In this document: positions 1,679 through 33,035 of the stretch, in pieces | How positions within the stretch are numbered: the stretch's first letter is position 1 | Layout: the number at the start of each line of letters is the position of its first letter | Assembly (NCBI GenBank): GCA_034226945.1 | Contig: CP120466.1 | Location: 1 to 64,000 of the forward strand | DNA: 64,000 nt | Reading direction: 5' to 3' | Source: Picochlorum sp. SENEW3 | Lineage: Eukaryota | The notes under the pieces: generated by a model | The model's input: the letters and a program-made list of their open reading frames with translations, nothing else | What the model was told of the DNA's origin: nothing | Database searches by the model: none | Made by a program: the position numbers and the translations under genes

Positions 1679-2409
1679 TTAATTTGTTTTACGTTTTGAT
1701 TCTTTTAATAGTTGCGTATCATTATACTTTTGCTGACCTATTTGGATTGCTGTCTCAAATGAACTTAAAATTAAACGTAATCCTGATACTGAGTCATCAT
1801 TCATTGGAACAAACCAGTCTGCCATTGTTGGATCACAATTACTATCTAATAAAGTAATTGTTGGAATTTTTAACTGACGACATTCACGTACTGCATGAAT
1901 TTCTTCAGGTTGACCAATAATAATAACCACATCTGGTCGATTTGGCATATTTTCTAAGCCACCTAAATATTTTTCTAAACGTTGTTTTTCACGTCGTTTT
2001 TTAGCAACTTCTTGTTTTTTTAATAAATTCCAGTCACCTGTTTCTTCAGCTAATCGATAGTTTTTTAACTTACGAATAGATTTTTGAATTGTTTGCCAAT
2101 TCGTTAACATTCCACCTAACCAACGTTGGTTTACGTAATAACTATTACATGCTAATGCAGACTCAGCAACTAAAGGAGCTGCTTGTTTTTTGTACCAACA
2201 AATAAAAATGTTTTCCCTTGGCTCGCACTTTTTTCAATGAAGTTTAACACTTCAGTTAATAAATAATGAGTTTGAACTAAGTCAATAATATGGCGTCCAT
2301 TACGCTCACCATAAATATATGGTGTCATTCTTGGGTTCCATTCACGTGTGAAATGTCCAAAATGCATTCCACTTTGAATCATTTCTTCTAATTTAATTTT
2401 TTGTGCCAT
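1679..2409 (-). CDS. rps2: Ribosomal protein S2; apparent frameshift at T-run 2186-2191
   Basis: GMHFGH..WNPRM N-terminus and WLGGMLTNW C-terminal part in two frames, joined by adding one A. Confidence 0.97.
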
Positions 2410-2523
2410 TATTGATATGAATAATGATTTCTTAGTAATTAGTAATTATCAATCATAAACTATTTTATAATTATCATTATAATAGGATTGAAACGGTTTT
2501 CAAGACTGTTTTATATAAAGTTT

Positions 2524-3664: not shown

Positions 3665-6110
<2,446 letters not shown>

Positions 6111-7696: not shown

Positions 7697-8764
7697 ATGA
7701 ATACACAAGCACCAAATATTCTAGAAGAAGCTCGTCCAGTATTTCCTTTTACCGCTATTGTTGGTCAAGAAGAAATGAAATTAGCACTAATTTTAAATGT
7801 TATTGACCCTAAAATTGGTGGTGTTATGATTATGGGCGATCGTGGGACGGGTAAATCAACAACTGTTCGTGCACTTGTCGATTTATTACCTGAAATTGAA
7901 GTTGTTGCAGATGATCCATTTAATTCAGATCCAAATGATCCAGAATTAATGAGTCAAGATGTTCGTGATCGAATTAATAATAATGAAACATTGCCAACTG
8001 CAACAAAAAAAATTACAATGGTTGATCTTCCATTAGGAGCAACAGAAGATCGAGTTTGTGGAACAATTGATATTGAAAAAGCATTAACAGATGGTGTAAA
8101 ATCTTTTGAACCTGGTTTGCTAGCAAAAGCGAATCGTGGAATTTTATATGTTGATGAAGTTAACTTATTAGATGATCATTTAGTTGATGTGCTTTTAGAT
8201 TCTGCTGCATCAGGTTGGAATACTGTAGAACGTGAAGGTATTTCAATTAGCCATCCCGCAAGATTTATTTTAGTTGGATCAGGTAACCCGGAAGAAGGTG
8301 AACTTAGACCACAATTATTAGATCGATTTGGCATGCATGCTCAAATTGGCACAGTAAAAGAACCAGATTTACGTGTTCAAATTGTAGAACAACGTGCTAT
8401 TTTTGATTCATCTCCACTTGAATTTAGAAATTCATACCAAGATTCGCAACTTCAATTAGCAAATAAAATTATTGAAGCACGTAAATTATTACCAGAAATT
8501 GAATTAAATTATGACTATCGTGTAAAAATTTCTGAAATTTGTTCTGAATTAGATGTAGATGGTTTACGTGGTGATTTAGTAACGAATCGTGCTAGTAAAG
8601 CATTAGCAGCATTTGAAGGTCATACAACAGTTACACCAGAAGATATCTATCGTGTAATTCCACTTTGTTTACGTCATCGATTACGTAAAGATCCATTAGA
8701 ATCAATTGATTCTGGTGACAAAGTACGTGATATTTTTAAACGTGTTTTTGGATATGATGATTAA
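7697..8764 (+). CDS. chlI: Magnesium chelatase subunit I
   Basis: [23 protein letters not shown] Walker A. Confidence 0.99.
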
Positions 8765-8773
8765 TTAAATTTT

Positions 8774-8803
8774 CTAAATTTAACGAGAAATCGTTAAATT
8801 TAG
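8774..8803 (+). terminator. 13-bp stem with GAAA tetraloop after chlI
   Basis: CTAAATTTAACGA-GAAA-TCGTTAAATTTAG. Confidence 0.7.
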
Positions 8804-8805
8804 TT

Positions 8806-8877
8806 GGGCCTATCGTCTAATGGATAGGACAGGAACCTTCTAAGTTTCTAATGTAGGTTCAAATCCTACTAGGCTCA
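8806..8877 (+). tRNA. trnR: tRNA-Arg(UCU)
   Basis: cloverleaf; loop CTTCTAA. Confidence 0.95.
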
Positions 8878-8885
8878 ATTTATTA

Positions 8886-8916
8886 TGTACTTTGATTTGA
8901 ATCAAATCAAAGTACA
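8886..8916. terminator. 14-bp stem-loop between convergent trnR and rpl12
   Basis: TGTACTTTGATTTG / CAAATCAAAGTACA. Confidence 0.7.
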
Positions 8917-8928
8917 AAGAATATATTT

Positions 8929-9330
8929 TTATGCAATTGATACTTTTGAACCTGTTTCTTCTAATTGTTGTTTTGCAGCTTCAGCATCTTCTTTTGAGAC
9001 ACCTTTAATAATACTATTTGGTAAAGTTGTAATTGCTTCTTTTGCTTCTTTTAAATCTAATGATGTTAAATTACGAATAATTTTTAATACGGGAACACGT
9101 TTATCACTTGGAACATCTTCTAAAACAACATCAAAAGTTGATTTTTCTTCAACTGCTGTATCACCACCAGTTGCTGCACCAGGATCACCTGCCATAGCAA
9201 CAAAACCACCACCAACTGGTGCCGATGCATCAACACCAAATGTTTCTTCAATTTGTGATACTAATTCTGCAGCTTCTAATAAAGTAATTGATTTTAATTT
9301 TTCTAAGATTTCGTTTGTTGTAGTTGACAT
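8929..9330 (-). CDS. rpl12: Ribosomal protein L12
   Basis: [35 protein letters not shown]. Confidence 0.98.
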
Positions 9331-9387
9331 AATCAAATTTTAATTTTTTTTTAGTTAAGAAGTTTATTGAAAAATAAATAAAAAATA

Positions 9388-9798
9388 TTATCGTTTTGAA
9401 AATTGCGGTGCTTTACGAGCTTTTTTTAGACCATATTTACGACGTTCTTTCATTCGAGCATCACGTGTTAAAAACTTACGCTCTTTAAAATATGGTCGTA
9501 AATTTGGAAATAAAGTACTAAAAGCTTTACATAAAGCTAAACGAATAGCTTGAGCTTGAGCACTTAATCCACCACCTTCAACAGTAATAATGGCATCATA
9601 TTTTTTTTCAGTTACCATTTCATAAATAGTATAAATACATTGTAAATATACAGCATTTTGTTGAAAATATGTATCTGCTGATTTTCCATTAATAAGAATT
9701 GAATTACCAGAACCGGGGATTAGTTGTACTTGAGCCTGCGCATTTTTTCGACCGCCTGCTTTAATTACATTACCTGTTATATCAATTGATTGGTTCAT
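9388..9798 (-). CDS. rps9: Ribosomal protein S9
   Basis: C-terminal ERRKYGLKKARKAPQFSKR. Confidence 0.98.
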   Translation of the reverse strand: MNQSIDITGNVIKAGGRKNAQAQVQLIPGSGNSILINGKSADTYFQQNAVYLQCIYTIYEMVTEKKYDAIITVEGGGLSAQAQAIRLALCKAFSTLFPNLRPYFKERKFLTRDARMKERRKYGLKKARKAPQFSKR

Positions 9799-13254: not shown

Positions 13255-13959
13255 TTATAGTTCAGTTGCTACGTTATCTAACTTTGATAATTGTTCACCA
13301 TTAAAAACCCAAATTTTAATGCCTAATAAGCCATAAATTGTTTTTGCAGATTTCGAACAATAGTCAATATTTGCACGTAAAGTTTGTAATGGTACAGCAC
13401 CATCGCGAACATCTTCAGCACGAGCAATATCAGCTCCGTTCAATCTTCCAGAAACTTGAACTTTAATTCCTTTTACACCTGCTTTTCGAGCACGTTGAAC
13501 AAGTTGTTTCATTGAACGACGATATGGTTTACGTTGTTCTAAATCTTCAACTAATCGGTCAGCTAAAACATGTGCATAAATATCAGGGTTTGCTAATGGT
13601 TTTACATATAAACTAATTTGTAATTTAGTTGGTTGTTCTAAATTTCGTTTTCGATAAAAACGTTCTAATTCAGTTGTTAATGAATCACGTAATTGATCTA
13701 AATTTTGTGTTTCACGATTTCCAAATAAATTTGGTCGTGCAGCAAAAATTTCAATAGTTAATGATGATGAACCAAAACGACGACGTCGAATTTCAATACG
13801 TGTAATTCCAGCCTTTGAATAATTTTTTGTAATGAAATTGCGTAAAAAATTAGCATCTTGAATCCAAACCGATGATAATTCACGGTTCGTACACCAATAA
13901 CTTTGATGCTTTTGTGTTATTCCAAGGCGAAAGCCTAAAGGATGTACTTTTTGTCCCAT
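13255..13959 (-). CDS. rps3: Ribosomal protein S3
   Basis: [25 protein letters not shown]. Confidence 0.99.
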
Positions 13960-13965
13960 AATTTT

Positions 13966-14232
13966 CTATCGTTTTCTTTTTAATATGACCTTTAAATGTA
14001 CGAGTTGGTGAAAATTCACCTAATTTATGCCCTACCATTTGATCAGTAATAAATACTGGAATATGTGTACGTCCATTATGTACCGCAATTGTATGTCCAA
14101 TCATAACTGGAACAATTGTTGAGGAACGTGACCATGTTGTAATTACTTTTTTATCACCTTGAACATTTGCGCGTTCAATTTTTTAAGTAAATGATCAGCC
14201 ACAAATGGTGCCTTTTTTAATGATCTTCCCAT
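13966..14232 (-). CDS. rps19: Ribosomal protein S19; apparent frameshifts near 14180 and near the stop
   Basis: [16 protein letters not shown] then, in another frame, [22 protein letters not shown]...[11 protein letters not shown]; exact 3' end uncertain. Confidence 0.93.
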
Positions 14233-14267
14233 AATAATAAATTTTTAGTAGTTATATCGAACTATAT

Positions 14268-21417: not shown

Positions 21418-21490
21418 GCGGGTATAGCTCAGTTGGTAGAGCGGCACCTTGCCAAGGTGCATGTCGCGCGTTCGAGTCGCGTTACCCGCT
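21418..21490 (+). tRNA. trnG: tRNA-Gly(GCC)
   Basis: loop TTGCCAA. Confidence 0.96.
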
Positions 21491-21834: not shown

Positions 21835-21877
21835 AAATTTTTCGGAAATTAATTTATCCATAAGAAATAGTATAGTT

Positions 21878-22079: not shown

Positions 22080-22327
22080 GGGGATATGGCGGAATTGGTA
22101 GACGCAACGGACTTAAAGGGTCAAGGTATAATATTGAGCCTTAATAGAGGAATTTATTAAGTGAATGCTCTCAAATTCAAGGAAACTTTTTTTAAAGCAA
22201 TCTTGAGCCAATTTAATTTAAAAGGTGCAGAGACTCGACAGGAGCTATCCAAAAAGATTTGGATAGTTTTCAAACTGAAAATCCGTTGATTCATTGAATC
22301 GTGAGAGTTCAAGTCTCTCTATCCCCA
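22080..22327 (+). tRNA. trnL: tRNA-Leu(UAA); exons 22080-22114 and 22278-22327
   Basis: joining exons gives ACGGA-CTTAAAA-TCCGT anticodon arm and GGGGATA/TATCCCC acceptor. Confidence 0.95.
22115..22277 (+). other. Group I intron in the trnL(UAA) anticodon, 163 nt, degenerate
   Basis: inserted after U34, ends in G; P (AAATTCAAGGAAAC), Q (GCAATCTTGAGCC), R (GCAGAGACTCGA) present; S element not found. Confidence 0.92.
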
Positions 22328-22391: not shown

Positions 22392-22639
22392 TTATTTTGC
22401 AAGAGCTGTCCAACTCATTGTAACATCGTCTAAAATTACTGAACTATTATAAATCTCTAAAATAATTACTAAGAAAATAGCAAATAAAGCCATAAAACAC
22501 CCATAACAACTGTTGTACCCCAACCTGGAGCAACTTTACCATATTCAGAATTTAATGGTTTTAGTAATGTACCTAATGGTGTTACTAGACCTGATTCTTG
22601 ATTTGCTGATTTTACTTTTGATGTAGTTCCAGTAGCCAT
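22392..22639 (-). CDS. psbH: Photosystem II phosphoprotein H; apparent frameshift at A-run 22494-22497
   Basis: MATGTTSK...[18 protein letters not shown] then, in another frame, [23 protein letters not shown]. Confidence 0.96.
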
Positions 22640-22822
22640 ATTAATTTTTAATTAATTTTTTTTACTTTCTATAATTCGAATTTTGTGGTTGATATCAATA
22701 TACATATATTATATAGCACATTTGTAAGAATATAAAACTTTTTAGTTTTATTTAAAAATTTAATTTTTAGTATGGTATACTATAACTAGTAGCAATTATA
22801 AATATTATTAAATAAATAATTT

Positions 22823-27097: not shown

Positions 27098-27182
27098 GCT
27101 GAAATATATATATATCGAACCTCTTTTACTAAAATTGTATAGGTTAACGATATTTAATCATTAGTATAACAAATTTTTCAGG

Positions 27183-30100
27183 ATGGTCCATACATTTGAA
27201 TCTACTATGTCTAATAATAAAATTATTAAAAAAAAATTACCAAAGCCAATTATACCAGATTTAGTTTCATTACAATATGGGAGTTTCCAAAAATTTTTAA
27301 TTCAAGGAATCCAAATTGGTTTAAATGAAAATACGCCTGTAAATTGTTCTTATGGAATTCATTCACTAAAAATTAAATTTTTGCCCGAAAAATTACAATT
27401 TCGTACGCCAGATAATAAAGAACAAAATTCGCTTTTTTCAGGTAAAACTTATGGCTGTTCAGTTTATATTCCAGCTGTTATTTCAAGTACTCAATGGAAA
27501 AAATCTAAAGTTGAGTGGTTATTATTAGGGTTCTTACCATTAATGACTCCAAGTGGGCATTTTATTATTAATGGAATTCCACGAATTGTATTATATCAAA
27601 TGGTACGAAATCCAGGAATATATATTCTTCCGAATGATTCACGTACCCGTGTTCCAACTATTCGTATAGTTCCGGAACAAGGTAGTTGGTTAAATATAAC
27701 TATTGATAAAAAAAATCGATTATGGATTACAACTCGACTATTACGTCGTAAAATTTCATTAATAATTTTTTTACAAGCGCTTGGTATTTCAATTTCCGAA
27801 TTATGTGCAAGAATTGAACATTCACAAATGCTTCAATTTAGTTTTATTCGTGATCAAAAAACGCAAGAAAAAACGCGTCATGGTCGAATTTTAGAACGAG
27901 CAAAATTGAATTCTCACCCACAAACTCGCATTGAAGCAATTCGTTATATATATGCGCATATTCAAGAATATACAACGTTAGGTCGCGATCAAGTTGTAAC
28001 TTCAGAAACTGCACAAGAATTTTTAATTCAATTTTGTGGAATCCAAAAAACCGTGACTTAGGTTATATTGGCCGTCAACAATTTAAATATAAATTTAATA
28101 GTACTATTTCTTCTAATTCAACATTATTATGTGGTGATGATTTAGTTTATGCAACAAATGCTTTATTGAAATTAATTTCTGGTGAAATTGAAGGTGATGA
28201 TATTGATAGTTTATCGAATAAACGTATTCGTGGTTGTGGTGAATTATTACAAGATCAATTAGTTCGTGGAATACGTGAATTTGAAATTGTTATGAGTCGC
28301 AAATTAAATTTATCCATCCAAAATGATTCTGAAATTGTATGGAAATTACAAAAATCAAATTTATCAAAGTGTGTAAGTAAATCTTGGAAAAGCTTTTTTA
28401 CAAGTGGAACTTTAGCACAATTCCTAGATGAAACAAACCCTTTAGCAGAAATTACTCATAAACGTCGTATTACGGTATTAGGACCAGGGGGAGTAAGTAG
28501 TAAACAAACAACGATTCAAATTCGTGGTATTCACCCGACGTATTATGGGCGTTTATGTCCAATTGAAACGCCAGAAGGCCAAAATGCAGGTTTAGTTAAT
28601 TCGTTAACAGTGTTTGCTCGCCCAAATAAATTGGGGTCAATTGAAACACCATTTTTTCAAGTATACAAAGGACAAGTTCAACAGTTTTTAAACCCTATTT
28701 ATAATATTCCATTTAATGAAGTAAATTATTCAATTGCACCAGCAGATATTACATGTTCGGGTACGGGTATGTTACCAAGACTCCAACTTCCGACTCGAAA
28801 AAATCGAAAATTTGATTATTCAGATTATAAAGATATTACTAACCAATCGGTTGATACATTACAGATGATATCAATTGCAACAAGTTTGATTCCATTTTTA
28901 GAACATGATGATGCAAACCGTGCATTAATGGGATCTAATATGCAACGCCAAGCAGTTCCATTAATTCGACCAGAAACTGCTTATGTTCAAACTGGGTTAG
29001 AAAGTCGTGTAATTTCTGATATTCAGCATTCGTTAAATAGTAATTTATCAGGATATATTACAAATGTTAGTGGCAAATCAATTGATATTTTTATTCCAAA
29101 TTCATTACCATTAAATTCAAATCCATCAATTTTTAAATCAACTACTATTCATAAATATTTACCTACGTTTCATTCTAATAACGTAAATAAGAAATCTTTA
29201 CAAAAAAATCTAAAATTCAAATTCTCAGCTATTACAGAATTACGAAAGTCGCTCTCTACTTCAGTATCAAATGTAAATTCAAATTCGATTCAATCAAATT
29301 TAACGAAAAGGATTTTGTTAGAACAATATAAACGAACAAATCAAAGTACAGTCAAGTATCAACGCCCAATTGTCAAAAGTGGAAATTGGATTCAAAAAGC
29401 AGATATTTTAGCTGATGGCGCAGCAAGTGCAGAAGGTAAAATTGCATTAGGAAAAAATATTTTAGTCGCTTATTTACCATGGGAAGGTTATAATTTTGAG
29501 GATGCTATTTTAATTAGTGAGCGTTTAGTAAATGAAGATATATTTACATCATTACATTTAGATTATTATGAAATTGAAGTAAAAAATACACAATATGGAT
29601 TAGAAAAAATTACAAATCAAATTCCAATTGAGTTTACAGAATCAGAAGAAGAAATATTACGTATTCAAAGACTTCAACCAAATGGTTTTATTCCAATTGG
29701 AACGTGGGTAAAAGAAGGTGATTATTTAGTTGGTAAAATTACACCAACTAGTCAAAAAATTCAGTCTGTCCAACAACAATATGAAAAATTATATAACGTA
29801 CTAATGGAACGTGATAATCAATTAAGTTCAGAACAAAAAAATGTGCGTGATACAAGTTTACGTGTTCCAAAAGGTGTCGAAGGATTTGTTTTTGATATAA
29901 ATATTTTACCACCGAAAGAAGCAGAAGTTCTTGCAATTGCGCCTAAAGATGCAATTTTACGCGTTCGTGTAGCATTATTACATAAACGTCGTATTCAGGT
30001 TGGCGATAAAATGGCTGGACGACATGGTAATAAAGGGATTGTTTCAAATATAATTCCAGCATATGATATGCCATATTTACCAGATGGCCGACCAGTTGAT

Positions 30101-30774
30101 ATTGTATTAAATCCTTTAGGTGTACCTTCTCGAATGAATGTAGGTCAGATTTTAGAATGTTTATTAGGTTTAGCTGGAACATACTTAAATGAATCTTATC
30201 TAATTAATTTATTTGATGAAAAATATGGTTCTGAATCGTCACGTAGTTTTGTTTATTCAAAATTATTTGAAGCATCATTAAAGAGCGGCCAGAACTGGTT
30301 ATTTGAACCACATCATCCTGGTAAAATTAAATTATTTGATGGGCGAACAGGAACAACTTTTGACCAACCTATTACGGTTGGATGTACTTACATGTTAAAA
30401 CTTGTCCATTTAGTTGATGATAAACTACATGCACGTTCAACTGGACCGTATTCTGCTATTACTCAACAACCAGTTCGTCGCGTAATGGTGGTCAAAGATT
30501 AGGGGAAATGGAAGTTTGGGCATTACAAGCATATGGAGCAGCTACAATTTTACAAGAATTTTTAACAATTAAATCAGATGATGTTCGAGGTCGTGTAGAA
30601 GCAGCTTTTCAAATTCATACAAATCAACCAATTGAATTTGGAACACCTGAAAGCTTCAGAGTTTTAATTCGTGAACTCCAAGCGCTTTGTTTTGACTTAA
30701 AATTATTTGGAATCCAGAAAAATACAGGATTACTACAAACAATAGATTTTAATCAAATTGAAAGTTTAGGGTAG
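27183..30774 (+). CDS. rpoB: RNA polymerase beta subunit; apparent frameshifts near 28020-28024 and 30478
   Basis: [31 protein letters not shown] across three ORF pieces; start codon uncertain (27183 or 27207). Confidence 0.97.
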
Positions 30775-30808
30775 TTTCTAATTTTTAGAAAACAAAAAAC
30801 GAAAAACA

Positions 30809-33035
30809 ATGTATCAAACAAATGGTCGTAAATTTCAACATTTAGAAATAGGTTTAGCTTCGCCTAAAGAAATCAAATCTTGGGCGGAGCGTTTTTTACC
30901 AACCGGTGAAATAGTTGGTCAAGTAACAAGTTGGGAAACAGTTAATTATAAAACATTAAAACCCGAACCAAATGGTTTATTTTGCCAAAAAATTTTTGGC
31001 CCAATTTCTGATTATACTTGTGCTTGTGGCAAAAAAACAACAAAAGTAAATGGAGGTGTTTGTCCACGCTGTGGAGTAGAAAGAACAAAATCATTAACTA
31101 GAAGATATCGAATGGGTTATATTGCTTTAAATCAACCAATGGCTCATACGTTATATTCTATTCAAAAACCATCACCCCTTGGTTTATGTTTAAGTTGGCC
31201 TAATAAAAAATCCAAGGTGTATTATATGGAACAGAATTTATTCATCTACCAAATACATTGAAGTATTTTTCATCGGAGATGAATATTAAAGTGGACTTTA
31301 AAAAAAGTCATTTGGATAACTTAAAACTTCAAGTTAAGGATAAACCACGCTTATTTACACATAAAAGTAAGAATCAACAATTTTCTAATTTACAGCAATA
31401 TAATAAATATTTTGAAATTCGTATTTATGGATTATGTTATGATGCTACTTGGCGACAAGTAGAAGATTTACAAGATTTTTTAGTGTATATGTGGGATCAA
31501 CCACAAGTCGACGACATTGTTAATCCATATTATTCTTTTAATAATAAAACTCAAAATTTTGCATTAAAAAGTGTTCCAAAACATAGTAATTATTATCCCA
31601 TTCAAACCGGTGGAGTTGTATTCCAAAAATCTTATCATATTATGATTTAATTGGTTTACAACAACAATTAGCATTAGATATTAATGAAGTAAAACAATCA
31701 ATCAATTTTTTAAAAGAACGTATCGAAATGACTTGGTTACCCAAGTTGGAAAAAACTAAAGTTCAACTTGAAATAACACGATTTAAAGAATTAGAAAAAA
31801 AATTATTACGTCGCATTACTTATTTTCGTGATTTTTATAAATCAAATACACAATTAGCATGGATGATTTTAAGTTATCTACCAGTTCTTCCACCGGGTTT
31901 ACGCCCAATTACTTCAATTCGAGGAGAACTAGTTATTTCTGACTTAAATAGTCTTTATCGTAAAGTTTTAACAAGAAACCGTCGATTAATAAACAGAACT
32001 CAATTTAGTATTTTTGATACTGCTTTAAGTGGTAGTTGGGCTTCTTGGTGTTATAACTTACGCCAAGTACAAGAATCAGTCGATGCATTATTAAAAACGG
32101 GAAAAGTTGATTCAGGGAAAGTAACAAAATCTTTATTAGATGCATTAAAAGGTAAACGTGGTCGATTTCGTCAACATTTATTAGGAAAACGAGTTGATTA
32201 TTCAGGTAGGTCTGTAATTGTTGTTGGTCCAGAATTAAAAATCCATGAATGTGGATTACCTAAACAAATGGCTATTGAATTATTTCAACCATTTCTAATT
32301 CAGCGATTACGTAATAAAGGAATGGCTTTTACAACAATTGGTGCAAAAGCTATCATTATGGAACGAAAACCAATTATTTGGGTTTTATTACGTGAAATTA
32401 TGCAAAGTCATCCCATTTTACTAAATCGAGCTCCTACTTTACATCGTTTAGGTATTCAAGCTTTTATTCCAAAACTTGTTGAAGGTAAAGCAATTCTATT
32501 ACACCCACTTGTTTGTCCAGCTTTTAATGCTGATTTTGATGGAGATCAAATGGCAGTTCATATTCCATTATCAACAAGTGCTCGTGCTGAAACTTTTAAT
32601 TTACTTTTATCATGTAATCATTTATTATCACCAGCTTCTGGGCAACCATTACTTTTACCGACCCAAGATATGGTTCTTGGTTGTTATTATTTAACATTAT
32701 TAAAATACAACAAATTTCAAAAAGAACAATCTTTAAAATTCAATATTTGGTATTCTACCATTTCAGAAATTCTTGCCGATTACCAAAGTAATAAAATCCA
32801 TACACATACTCCAATTTGGATAAAATTAAATTTTCCAGTTCAAACATTAATTGGCGAAAAACAATCAAAAGAAGTAAATAAACCCTTAGAGATTCGATTA
32901 ATGAAAAATGGAAATAAATATACGTATTTTCACGAAACCTATATAGTGCATGAATCCAAAAGTTCATTAACACCAAGTTATTTTTATAGAACAACTGCTG
33001 GTCGTGTACTAATGAATAATTTAATTTATAGCTAA
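30809..33035 (+). CDS. rpoC1: RNA polymerase beta' subunit; apparent frameshifts near 31205-31210 and 31625-31629
   Basis: Zn finger CACGK..CPRC, GKRVDYSGR, NADFDGD; one added A at each site joins three ORFs. Confidence 0.97.

What the first reader, a model, noticed from the sequence alone, without database searches (positions are those of the whole stretch)
22115..22277. Miniature trnL(UAA) group I intron lacking the S (J8/7-P7') element
Seen: the intron is only 163 nt. P1/IGS (TGAG), P2, P3, P4-P6, R (GCAGAGACTCGA) and P8 (TATCCAAA/TTTGGATA) are recognisable, but only 12 nt (GTTTTCAAACTG) follow P8. There is no AAGATAGAGTCC-like S element and no room for a normal P9. Known: P7, formed by R and S, is the guanosine-binding site of group I ribozymes. 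TTA is a very common Leu codon here, and the other trnL in the window (UAG) cannot read it, so the intron presumably must be removed. Inference: either splicing is non-canonical (protein-assisted or trans-complemented) or the assembly dropped a segment.
Basis: partly seen in the sequence, partly recalled or inferred. Interest (0 to 1): 0.7.

Follow-up and report, generated by a model that had tools for sequence, protein, structure and literature searches.

The report
Assembly error in algal tRNA intron
The chloroplast leucine-tRNA intron of this small green alga seems to lack half of its catalytic core, but close relatives have the missing piece at exactly that spot and this chloroplast sequence is full of dropped bases, so it is almost certainly an ordinary compact intron that was mis-assembled.

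Summary
As assembled, the 163-nt trnL(UAA) intron (22115-22277) has P1-P6, R, P8 and a terminal G but no S/P7' strand. This is most likely an assembly artefact.

Two of the four public runs laid bridge the site (X14, X15; two studies). Both carry AAAGAGAGAGTCC behind 22264, plus 8 nt in P6 and 3 nt in P8, giving a 187-nt intron with normal P7.

The plastid contig itself drops bases. All 18 frame breaks examined in 11 genes (psaB, rpoB, rbcL, psbH and others) are in the loss direction. One is a 7-nt loss in a fixed-length RpoB motif, and a hairpin beside psbM lacks 4 nt. GAGTC is present in 103 of 104 complete bacterial trnL introns.

Real but modest: P9 is a 13-nt stub and L1 is lengthened, as in metagenomic intron L089. 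The source's own reads were not seen, so a true strain-specific loss is not excluded (about 8-10%). The scan had not noted this elsewhere.

The parts
22080..22114 (+). tRNA-Leu(UAA) 5' exon, ending at U34
   Evidence: ARAGORN
22115..22277 (+). group I (trnL-type) intron as assembled, 163 nt; 187 nt in the two relatives that bridge it
22115..22134 (+). lengthened L1 (20 nt against 7-10 in 104 bacterial introns); 22116-22124 can pair with the IGS and start of P2 (22134-22142); holds GGGTC (22118-22122), the only 5-mer in the intron fully complementary to R
22135..22138 (+). IGS; P1 pairs C22112-G22138, U22113-A22137 and the U22114-G22136 wobble at the 5' splice site
   Evidence: sequence, RF00028 alignment
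22140..22161 (+). P2 hairpin with GNRA loop (GGAA; GAAA in X14 and X15)
22167..22207 (+). P3 5' strand, P4 (P and Q elements) and a very short P5
22208..22228 (+). P6 region; 8 nt that form the P6a loop in X14 and X15 are missing here (behind 22210-22214)
   Evidence: the window's P6a does not fold (z 0.18)
22230..22236 (+). R element, 5' strand of P7 (G of the guanosine-binding G-C pair at 22232)
22246..22265 (+). P8 hairpin; its A run is 5 here and 8 in X14 and X15
22264..22265 (+). site of the missing 13-nt J8/7-P7' (S) element, present in X14 and X15
   Evidence: table 4
22265..22277 (+). P9.0/P9 stub (AGT...ACT) and omega-G 22277
   Evidence: same stub in L089
22278..22327 (+). tRNA-Leu(UAA) 3' exon
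21840..21867 (+). control: hairpin after psbM whose left arm lacks 4 nt that X5 and X14 (and a loose end of X15) have; with them the arms are a perfect 11-bp inverted repeat
22395..22651 (-). control: psbH, frameshifted by one base missing from an A run behind 22493; X14 and X15 have the base
30470..30485 (+). control: 7-nt loss in rpoB within a motif whose length is the same in 120 of 120 homologues

Best explanation
The S-less intron is a sequencing or assembly error. The organism, a small chlorellalean green alga, most likely carries the ordinary plastid trnL(UAA) group I intron in a compact form of about 187 nt. In that form R (22230-22236) pairs with the S strand to make P7 with its G-C guanosine site. 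Exogenous G attacks the U-G wobble at the end of P1, and omega-G 22277 then marks the 3' splice site for exon ligation. Splicing is probably protein-assisted in vivo, given the stub P9 and short P5 and P6. SHOWN: close relatives have S here, and this contig drops bases. ESTABLISHED KNOWLEDGE: the two-step chemistry and the G site in P7 (PMC3679873, passages). INFERRED: that the source strain equals its relatives at this site, that the errors come from an unpolished long-read consensus, and that proteins assist splicing.
For: (1): X14 record 5 (DNA, study P7; 22088-22329, 3 other letters, 24 gap letters) and X15 record 15 (RNA library, study P8; 5 other letters, 24 gap letters) both insert the 13-nt S element behind 22264, plus 8 nt in P6 and 3 nt in P8. 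The 13-mer is identical to the S element of 25 of the 103 bacterial introns that have GAGTC. (2) All 6 indels shown by two or more runs in that 1-kb stretch are bases missing from the window (table 4; 12 rows shown, 2 not shown). (3) psaB has 5 single-base deletions, all in A/T runs, and no insertion, against two homologues. 18 of 18 frame breaks in 11 genes are in the -1 direction (pieces); these include genes a photosynthetic alga needs. (4) Multi-base losses occur outside the intron: 7 nt in rpoB and 4 nt in the psbM hairpin arm. (5) 103 of 104 complete bacterial trnL introns, chosen on R and P3 and not on S, have GAGTC; the other has GAGCC. L089 has S too. (6) No other UUA-reading tRNA gene was found in the plastid contig and no second copy in G000, so a dead intron should not be tolerated. 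(7) Indicative only: the best-holding runs share 0.88 of sampled words. The expected share is 0.875 if they carry all six shared insertions and 0.94 if only the flanking ones (overlapping words treated as independent, substitutions ignored).
Against: The source's own reads were not seen. The bridging contigs are from relatives, not the same strain: X14's neighbouring main contig has 4 differences in 145 nt, and X15's record has depth 3.3 and may belong to a more distant organism (19 differences in 386 nt next door). The 13- and 8-nt losses are larger than the other multi-base losses found (7 and 4 nt), most errors are single bases, and three losses within 55 nt is a clustering I cannot explain. 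The visible part of the 16S rRNA 5' half shows no clear multi-base loss in conserved helices (alignment cut short). One paper finds nanopore deletion rates at inverted repeats barely raised (0.99-1.19-fold; PMC10519405, passages), so hairpins alone do not explain the losses. The platform is unknown.
Confidence: 0.9

Rival explanations
1. The loss is real and strain-specific, and the intron is removed without P7: by host proteins (for example an endonuclease and ligase acting on the precursor) or with an S strand supplied in trans.
For: Three losses cluster in the intron, and A22240 departs from the G of X14, X15 and L089, as expected under relaxed constraint. Host-dependent group I introns with a truncated core exist (myxomycete L1949 lacking P8; PMC3679873, passages). 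A 152-nt 'putative group I' trnL intron is listed for Tydemania (PMC4487195, Table 4 passage; its structure was not seen).
Against: Relatives at about 97-100% identity in the flanks keep S. No S-like AGAGAGTC or ATAGAGTC lies elsewhere in the plastid contig. P1-P4 and R are intact, which a protein-only route would not need. The contig's proven deletion bias explains the loss more simply.
Confidence: 0.05
2. Permuted core: the loss is real, and GGGUC at the intron's 5' end (22118-22122) pairs with R to rebuild P7, keeping the G-C guanosine site.
For: GGGTC is the only 5-mer inside the intron that pairs fully with R (4 Watson-Crick pairs, 1 G-U). It sits 3 nt from the 5' splice site in an unusually long L1.
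Against: One such match is expected by chance 0.45 times in this intron. X14 and X15 have the same GGGTC together with a normal S, so it is not a compensating gain. L089 has a long L1 without it. The segment has a better partner in the IGS and start of P2 (z -2.7), and L089 can make the equivalent pairing (z -1.3). J8/7 would still be missing.
Confidence: 0.02
3. The loss is real but the copy is dead: a defective minority of plastid genomes taken up by the assembly, or a pseudogene complemented by an imported or diverged tRNA-Leu(UAA).
For: Clustered losses and one non-consensus base. A DNA search would miss a diverged nuclear or mitochondrial tRNA gene.
Against: Both exons give a perfect tRNA. 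TTA is the main Leu codon (902 uses). The same contig shows the same kind of loss in many indispensable genes, which cannot all be pseudogenes.
Confidence: 0.03

Closest known systems
Cyanobacterial and plastid tRNA-Leu(UAA) group I intron (subgroup IC3; Leptosira, Chlorella, Bryopsis and Scenedesmus copies listed in PMC1931444 Table 3; also Helicosporidium, PMC1463013; passages read)
   Same: Same insertion site after U34, same P1/IGS, P, Q and R elements, P8 and omega-G. Relatives X14 and X15 have an S element identical to that of 25 of 103 bacterial copies.
   Different: Shorter: 187 nt in the relatives (163 as assembled) against 216-441 nt in 104 bacterial copies. The tail after GAGTC is about 14 nt (15 in L089) against 43-88. 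L1 is 20 nt against 7-10. The assembled copy lacks S, most likely by error.
Short green-algal trnL(UAA) introns of Bryopsis plumosa (205 nt) and Tydemania expeditiones (152 nt) (PMC4487195, Table 4 and Introns passages)
   Same: Miniature trnL introns at the same site in compact green-algal plastid genomes, so small size is already in print.
   Different: Different lineage (Bryopsidales). I could not see their sequences or whether S is kept; the supplement search timed out.
Host-factor-dependent obligatory group I introns: land-plant trnL (PMC9275481, passages) and myxomycete L1949/L2449, some lacking P8 (PMC3679873, passages)
   Same: Vertically inherited introns in essential RNAs, with reduced structure and splicing that depends on host proteins; the likely working mode here (inferred).
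   Different: None of the passages read describes loss of P7; here the apparent loss is best explained as an assembly error.

Membership tests
trnL(UAA) group I intron (IC3) | Inserted in the anticodon of tRNA-Leu(UAA), after U34 | tested here: met
   ARAGORN
trnL(UAA) group I intron (IC3) | P1 with a U-G wobble at the 5' splice site; terminal omega-G | tested here: met
   U22114-G22136; G22277
trnL(UAA) group I intron (IC3) | P3, P4-P6 (P and Q), R element, P8 | tested here: met
   RF00028 57.6 bits, E 5e-14; alignment to L089
trnL(UAA) group I intron (IC3) | S element and P7 with the G-C guanosine site, in the window as assembled | tested here: not met
   The assembled 163-nt string is therefore not filed as a working member; it is treated as a corrupted record of one.
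trnL(UAA) group I intron (IC3) | S element and P7 in the orthologous intron of close relatives | tested here: met
   2 of 2 bridging contigs (X14, X15); L089
trnL(UAA) group I intron (IC3) | Full P9 domain as in cyanobacterial copies (peripheral, not catalytic) | tested here: not met
   stub only, in the window, X14, X15 and L089, against 43-88 nt in 103 bacterial copies
trnL(UAA) group I intron (IC3) | Spliced tRNA made in vivo | tested here: inconclusive
   No exon-exon joint; all four runs are contigs, which cannot show absence
trnL(UAA) group I intron (IC3) | Guanosine-dependent two-step splicing, alone or protein-assisted | not testable with these tools
   needs an in vitro assay
Permuted or rearranged group I core (considered) | A displaced P7' strand that is gained or covaries with R where S is lost | tested here: not met
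   GGGTC coexists with S in X14 and X15, is absent in L089, and is at chance level

The most novel reading that the evidence does not exclude
The source strain has truly lost J8/7-P7', yet still makes its only UUA-reading plastid tRNA. It would rebuild P7 from the GGGUC already present in the lineage's lengthened L1, next to the 5' splice site, or hand catalysis to host proteins. That would be a natural group I intron with a rewired or abandoned catalytic core, arisen between strains that are otherwise 97-100% alike, and so directly testable side by side.
Probability: 0.06. Interest if true: 0.85.

Novelty: not a real feature. Interest (0 to 1): 0.1.

Why it matters
As an artefact it matters only as a warning: this plastid contig is deletion-prone, so any 'missing element', split gene or pseudogene called in it needs read support. 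If the loss were real it would matter a great deal, because P7 holds the guanosine site of group I ribozymes and this tRNA appears indispensable. The real residue is a modest lead. The relatives' 187-nt intron has P9 cut to a stub and an L1 extension able to sequester the IGS, which makes it a small natural test case for how far a group I intron can shrink. I found no paper on this intron in Picochlorum-like algae in the library (subscription journals are mostly missing, and Simon et al. 2003 was not held).

Tried and rejected
1) Displaced P7' at the intron's 5' end (my first idea): rejected. It is at chance level (0.45 expected), present alongside S in X14 and X15, and absent in L089.

2) A second or intronless trnL(UAA): none in the 74,137-bp plastid contig (27 tRNAs); one match only in G000. 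Diverged nuclear or mitochondrial tRNAs were not searched.

3) An S strand elsewhere in the plastid for trans-complementation: no AGAGAGTC or ATAGAGTC; 7 isolated GAGTCC hexamers, none near trnL, not followed up.

A viral scan gave 48 matches, none a trnL gene.

5) Same-strain confirmation: X1 and X5 gave no piece across the intron; a hole proves nothing. No spliced joint was seen, which is uninformative for contigs. One X5 contig with a joint 22116-22223 was set aside as probably another organism (likeness threshold 80, short side).

6) PsaA control: the two proteins tried (P0096, P0099) aligned like PsaB paralogues and stopped before the break. The psaA break rests on the frames and the truncated profile match.

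7) 16S rRNA control: no clear multi-base loss in the part shown.

8) A literature search for group I introns lacking P7 was swamped by p73/p75 papers; the one candidate among the 15 of 28 listed concerned GOLLD RNA (PMC12990946, passages).

9) Earlier notes of the scan: nothing on this genome or this feature.

Full report
Setting. The window is bases 1-64,000 of contig C14 (74,137 bp) of a 13.85-Mb, 14-contig assembly. It is a green-algal plastid genome. The best named RpoB hit is Marvania geminata at 78%. The contig has no trnL(caa), trnL(gag), trnT(ggt), trnR(ccg) or trnS(gga), which matches the losses reported for Picochlorum (PMC11434904, passages); the assembly size is near the 13.3 Mb quoted for Picochlorum sp. 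(PMC5577192, passage). A Picochlorum-like alga of the Nannochloris clade is therefore my inference.

The observation. ARAGORN finds tRNA-Leu(UAA) at 22080-22327 with a 163-nt intron (22115-22277), and the joined exons fold normally. P1 with its U-G wobble, P2, P3, P4-P6, R, P8 and omega-G are there; 12 nt follow P8; no GAGTC lies nearby. RF00028 scores 57.6 bits but gaps the S positions and overruns the 3' exon. The gene looks indispensable: TTA is 902 of 10,623 codons in 22 ORFs, the only other plastid tRNA-Leu is UAG, and G000 gave no second copy. S is nearly invariant in this intron family. Of 120 bacterial loci picked by R and P3 (mostly cyanobacteria by the 80 titles shown), 104 had both ends recognised by my script; 103 of these have GAGTC and one has GAGCC. 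Of the 16 set aside, 14 also show GAGTC. The anomaly in the record is real and not chance.

Close relatives have the missing piece. I laid 4 of the 24 runs listed. Two bridge the intron: X14 (DNA, study P7) and X15 (RNA library, study P8). Each has 24 letters that the window lacks: AAAGAGAGAGTCC behind 22264, three A in the P8 run, and 8 nt forming the P6a loop. Both also read A at 22150 and G at 22240. Their intron is thus 187 nt with a standard P7. The 13-mer is the same as the S element in 25 of the 103 bacterial copies. Several flanking contigs in these runs have no difference from the window over 91-178 nt, others 4 in 145 or 19 in 386, so these are close relatives, not proven to be the same strain. 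X1 and X5, which hold more of the sampled words (0.88, 0.86), gave no piece across the intron. No run among the 24 holds more than 0.88. That fits holders that carry all six shared insertions (expected 0.875) better than holders that match the window's intron (0.94), but it is indicative only.

The contig drops bases. All 6 indels shown by two or more runs in the 1-kb stretch are letters missing from the window; one of them frameshifts psbH. psaB needs 5 single-base additions, all in A or T runs, to match two homologues, and no removal. Across 11 genes, 18 of 18 frame breaks are in the -1 direction, including rbcL, atpA, rpoB and psaA. Deletions are confirmed against homologues or relatives for psaB, rpoB and psbH; the others are read from frames and profile positions. 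Two losses outside the intron are multi-base: 7 nt in an RpoB motif of fixed length in 120 of 120 homologues, and 4 nt in one arm of the hairpin after psbM, where X5 and X14 have a perfect inverted repeat and the window keeps the other arm intact. Deletions in homopolymers and short repeats are the main residual error of nanopore-only assemblies, and A and G signals are hard to tell apart (PMC7092973 and PMC8486125, passages); the lost S is mostly an A/G run. The platform is not known.

Results against this reading. The source reads were not available. The 13- and 8-nt losses exceed the other multi-base losses found, and three of them lie within 55 nt. The part of the 16S rRNA shown has no clear multi-base loss. 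PMC10519405 (passages) reports little excess of nanopore deletions at inverted repeats, so hairpins alone are not an adequate cause. Truncated, host-dependent group I introns exist (PMC3679873, passages), and a 152-nt trnL intron is listed for Tydemania (PMC4487195, passages; its supplement could not be searched, and may show whether S is kept). I put a real loss of any kind at about 10%.

The permuted-core idea. GGGTC at 22118-22122 could pair with R and keep the G-C pair. It is the only such 5-mer in the intron, but 0.45 are expected by chance. It coexists with S in X14 and X15, and it is absent from L089, a 211-nt metagenomic trnL intron with the same long L1, a normal S and the same P9 stub. 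The segment pairs better with the IGS and the start of P2. Rejected at about 2%.

How it most likely works. In the living alga the precursor folds as a compact IC3 intron. Exogenous guanosine bound in P7 attacks the U22114-G22136 wobble site, the freed 5' exon attacks after G22277, and the exons join to give tRNA-Leu(UAA) (chemistry and G site: PMC3679873 and PMC9275481, passages). Protein help is likely, since P9 is a stub and P5 and P6 are short, and the land-plant copy does not self-splice (PMC9275481). This step is inferred; I recall that Simon et al. 2003 tested algal copies, but the paper was not held and I saw it only as a citation.

Comparison and novelty. It works like, and in the relatives is a member of, the cyanobacterial and plastid trnL(UAA) intron family, which is known from Chlorella, Leptosira and Helicosporidium (PMC1931444, PMC4023601, PMC1463013, PMC2765969; passages). 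The assembled string fails the P7 test and is filed as a corrupted record, not as a new kind. The long L1 and the stub P9 are real lineage features; I found no description of them in the searches named, but the library lacks most subscription papers, so they may well be in print. The scan's earlier notes hold nothing on this feature. All papers cited were seen as search listings and extracted passages only.

Verdict. Observation confirmed in the record; the S-less intron is not a real feature (confidence 0.9); interest 0.1. Most novel reading not excluded: a true loss with a rewired or protein-replaced core, probability 0.06, interest 0.85.

Noticed in passing
window 1682-2445, 13883-14259, 22395-22651, 27165-30771, 30782-33032, 47821-52404, 52592-54504; L002:5896-7342, 8216-9753: 18 frame breaks in 11 plastid genes (rps2, rps19, psbH, rpoB x2, rpoC1 x2, psaA, psaB x5, atpB, atpE, rbcL x2, atpA), all in the loss direction, mostly in homopolymer runs: the contig looks like an unpolished long-read consensus.
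   Followed up: yes
window 22116-22142; L089:224-270 (-): The lengthened L1 can pair with the IGS and the first strand of P2, in competition with P1 and P2 (window z -2.7; L089 z -1.3). X15's three differences here fall in the loop. It may be a folding switch or a way to shut off the excised intron; only two independent sequence types were seen.
   Followed up: partly
window 22265-22277; L089: P9 is cut to an AGT...ACT hairpin closing just before omega-G in the window, X14, X15 and L089, whereas 103 bacterial copies have 43-88 nt after GAGTC.
   Followed up: partly
window 21840-21867: Terminator-like inverted repeat between psbM and trnY whose left arm lacks 4 nt in the window but is perfect in X5 and X14.
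   Followed up: yes
window 21418-21490 and contig C14 71954-72026 (L002): Two trnG(GCC) genes in a plastid contig with a single rRNA operon. A duplicated trnG(gcc) is reported for Marvania geminata (PMC4524492, passage).
   Followed up: no
window 4450-4636 (+) and 22493-22553 (+): Rfam matches IsrR (antisense to psbC, probably through psbC-isiA homology) and Plastid-psbN (opposite psbH).
   Followed up: no
L002:1809-3896 and 3893-4213 (+): A long unidentified ORF (ycf1-like by position and size, from recall) followed by an overlapping frame; no NCBIfam hit. Possibly another frame break; not counted.
   Followed up: no
L289; L199: One bacterial trnL intron has GAGCC in place of GAGTC (L289). 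A record titled as a non-cyanobacterial genus (L199) carries a complete cyanobacterial-type trnL intron, perhaps through bin contamination.
   Followed up: no
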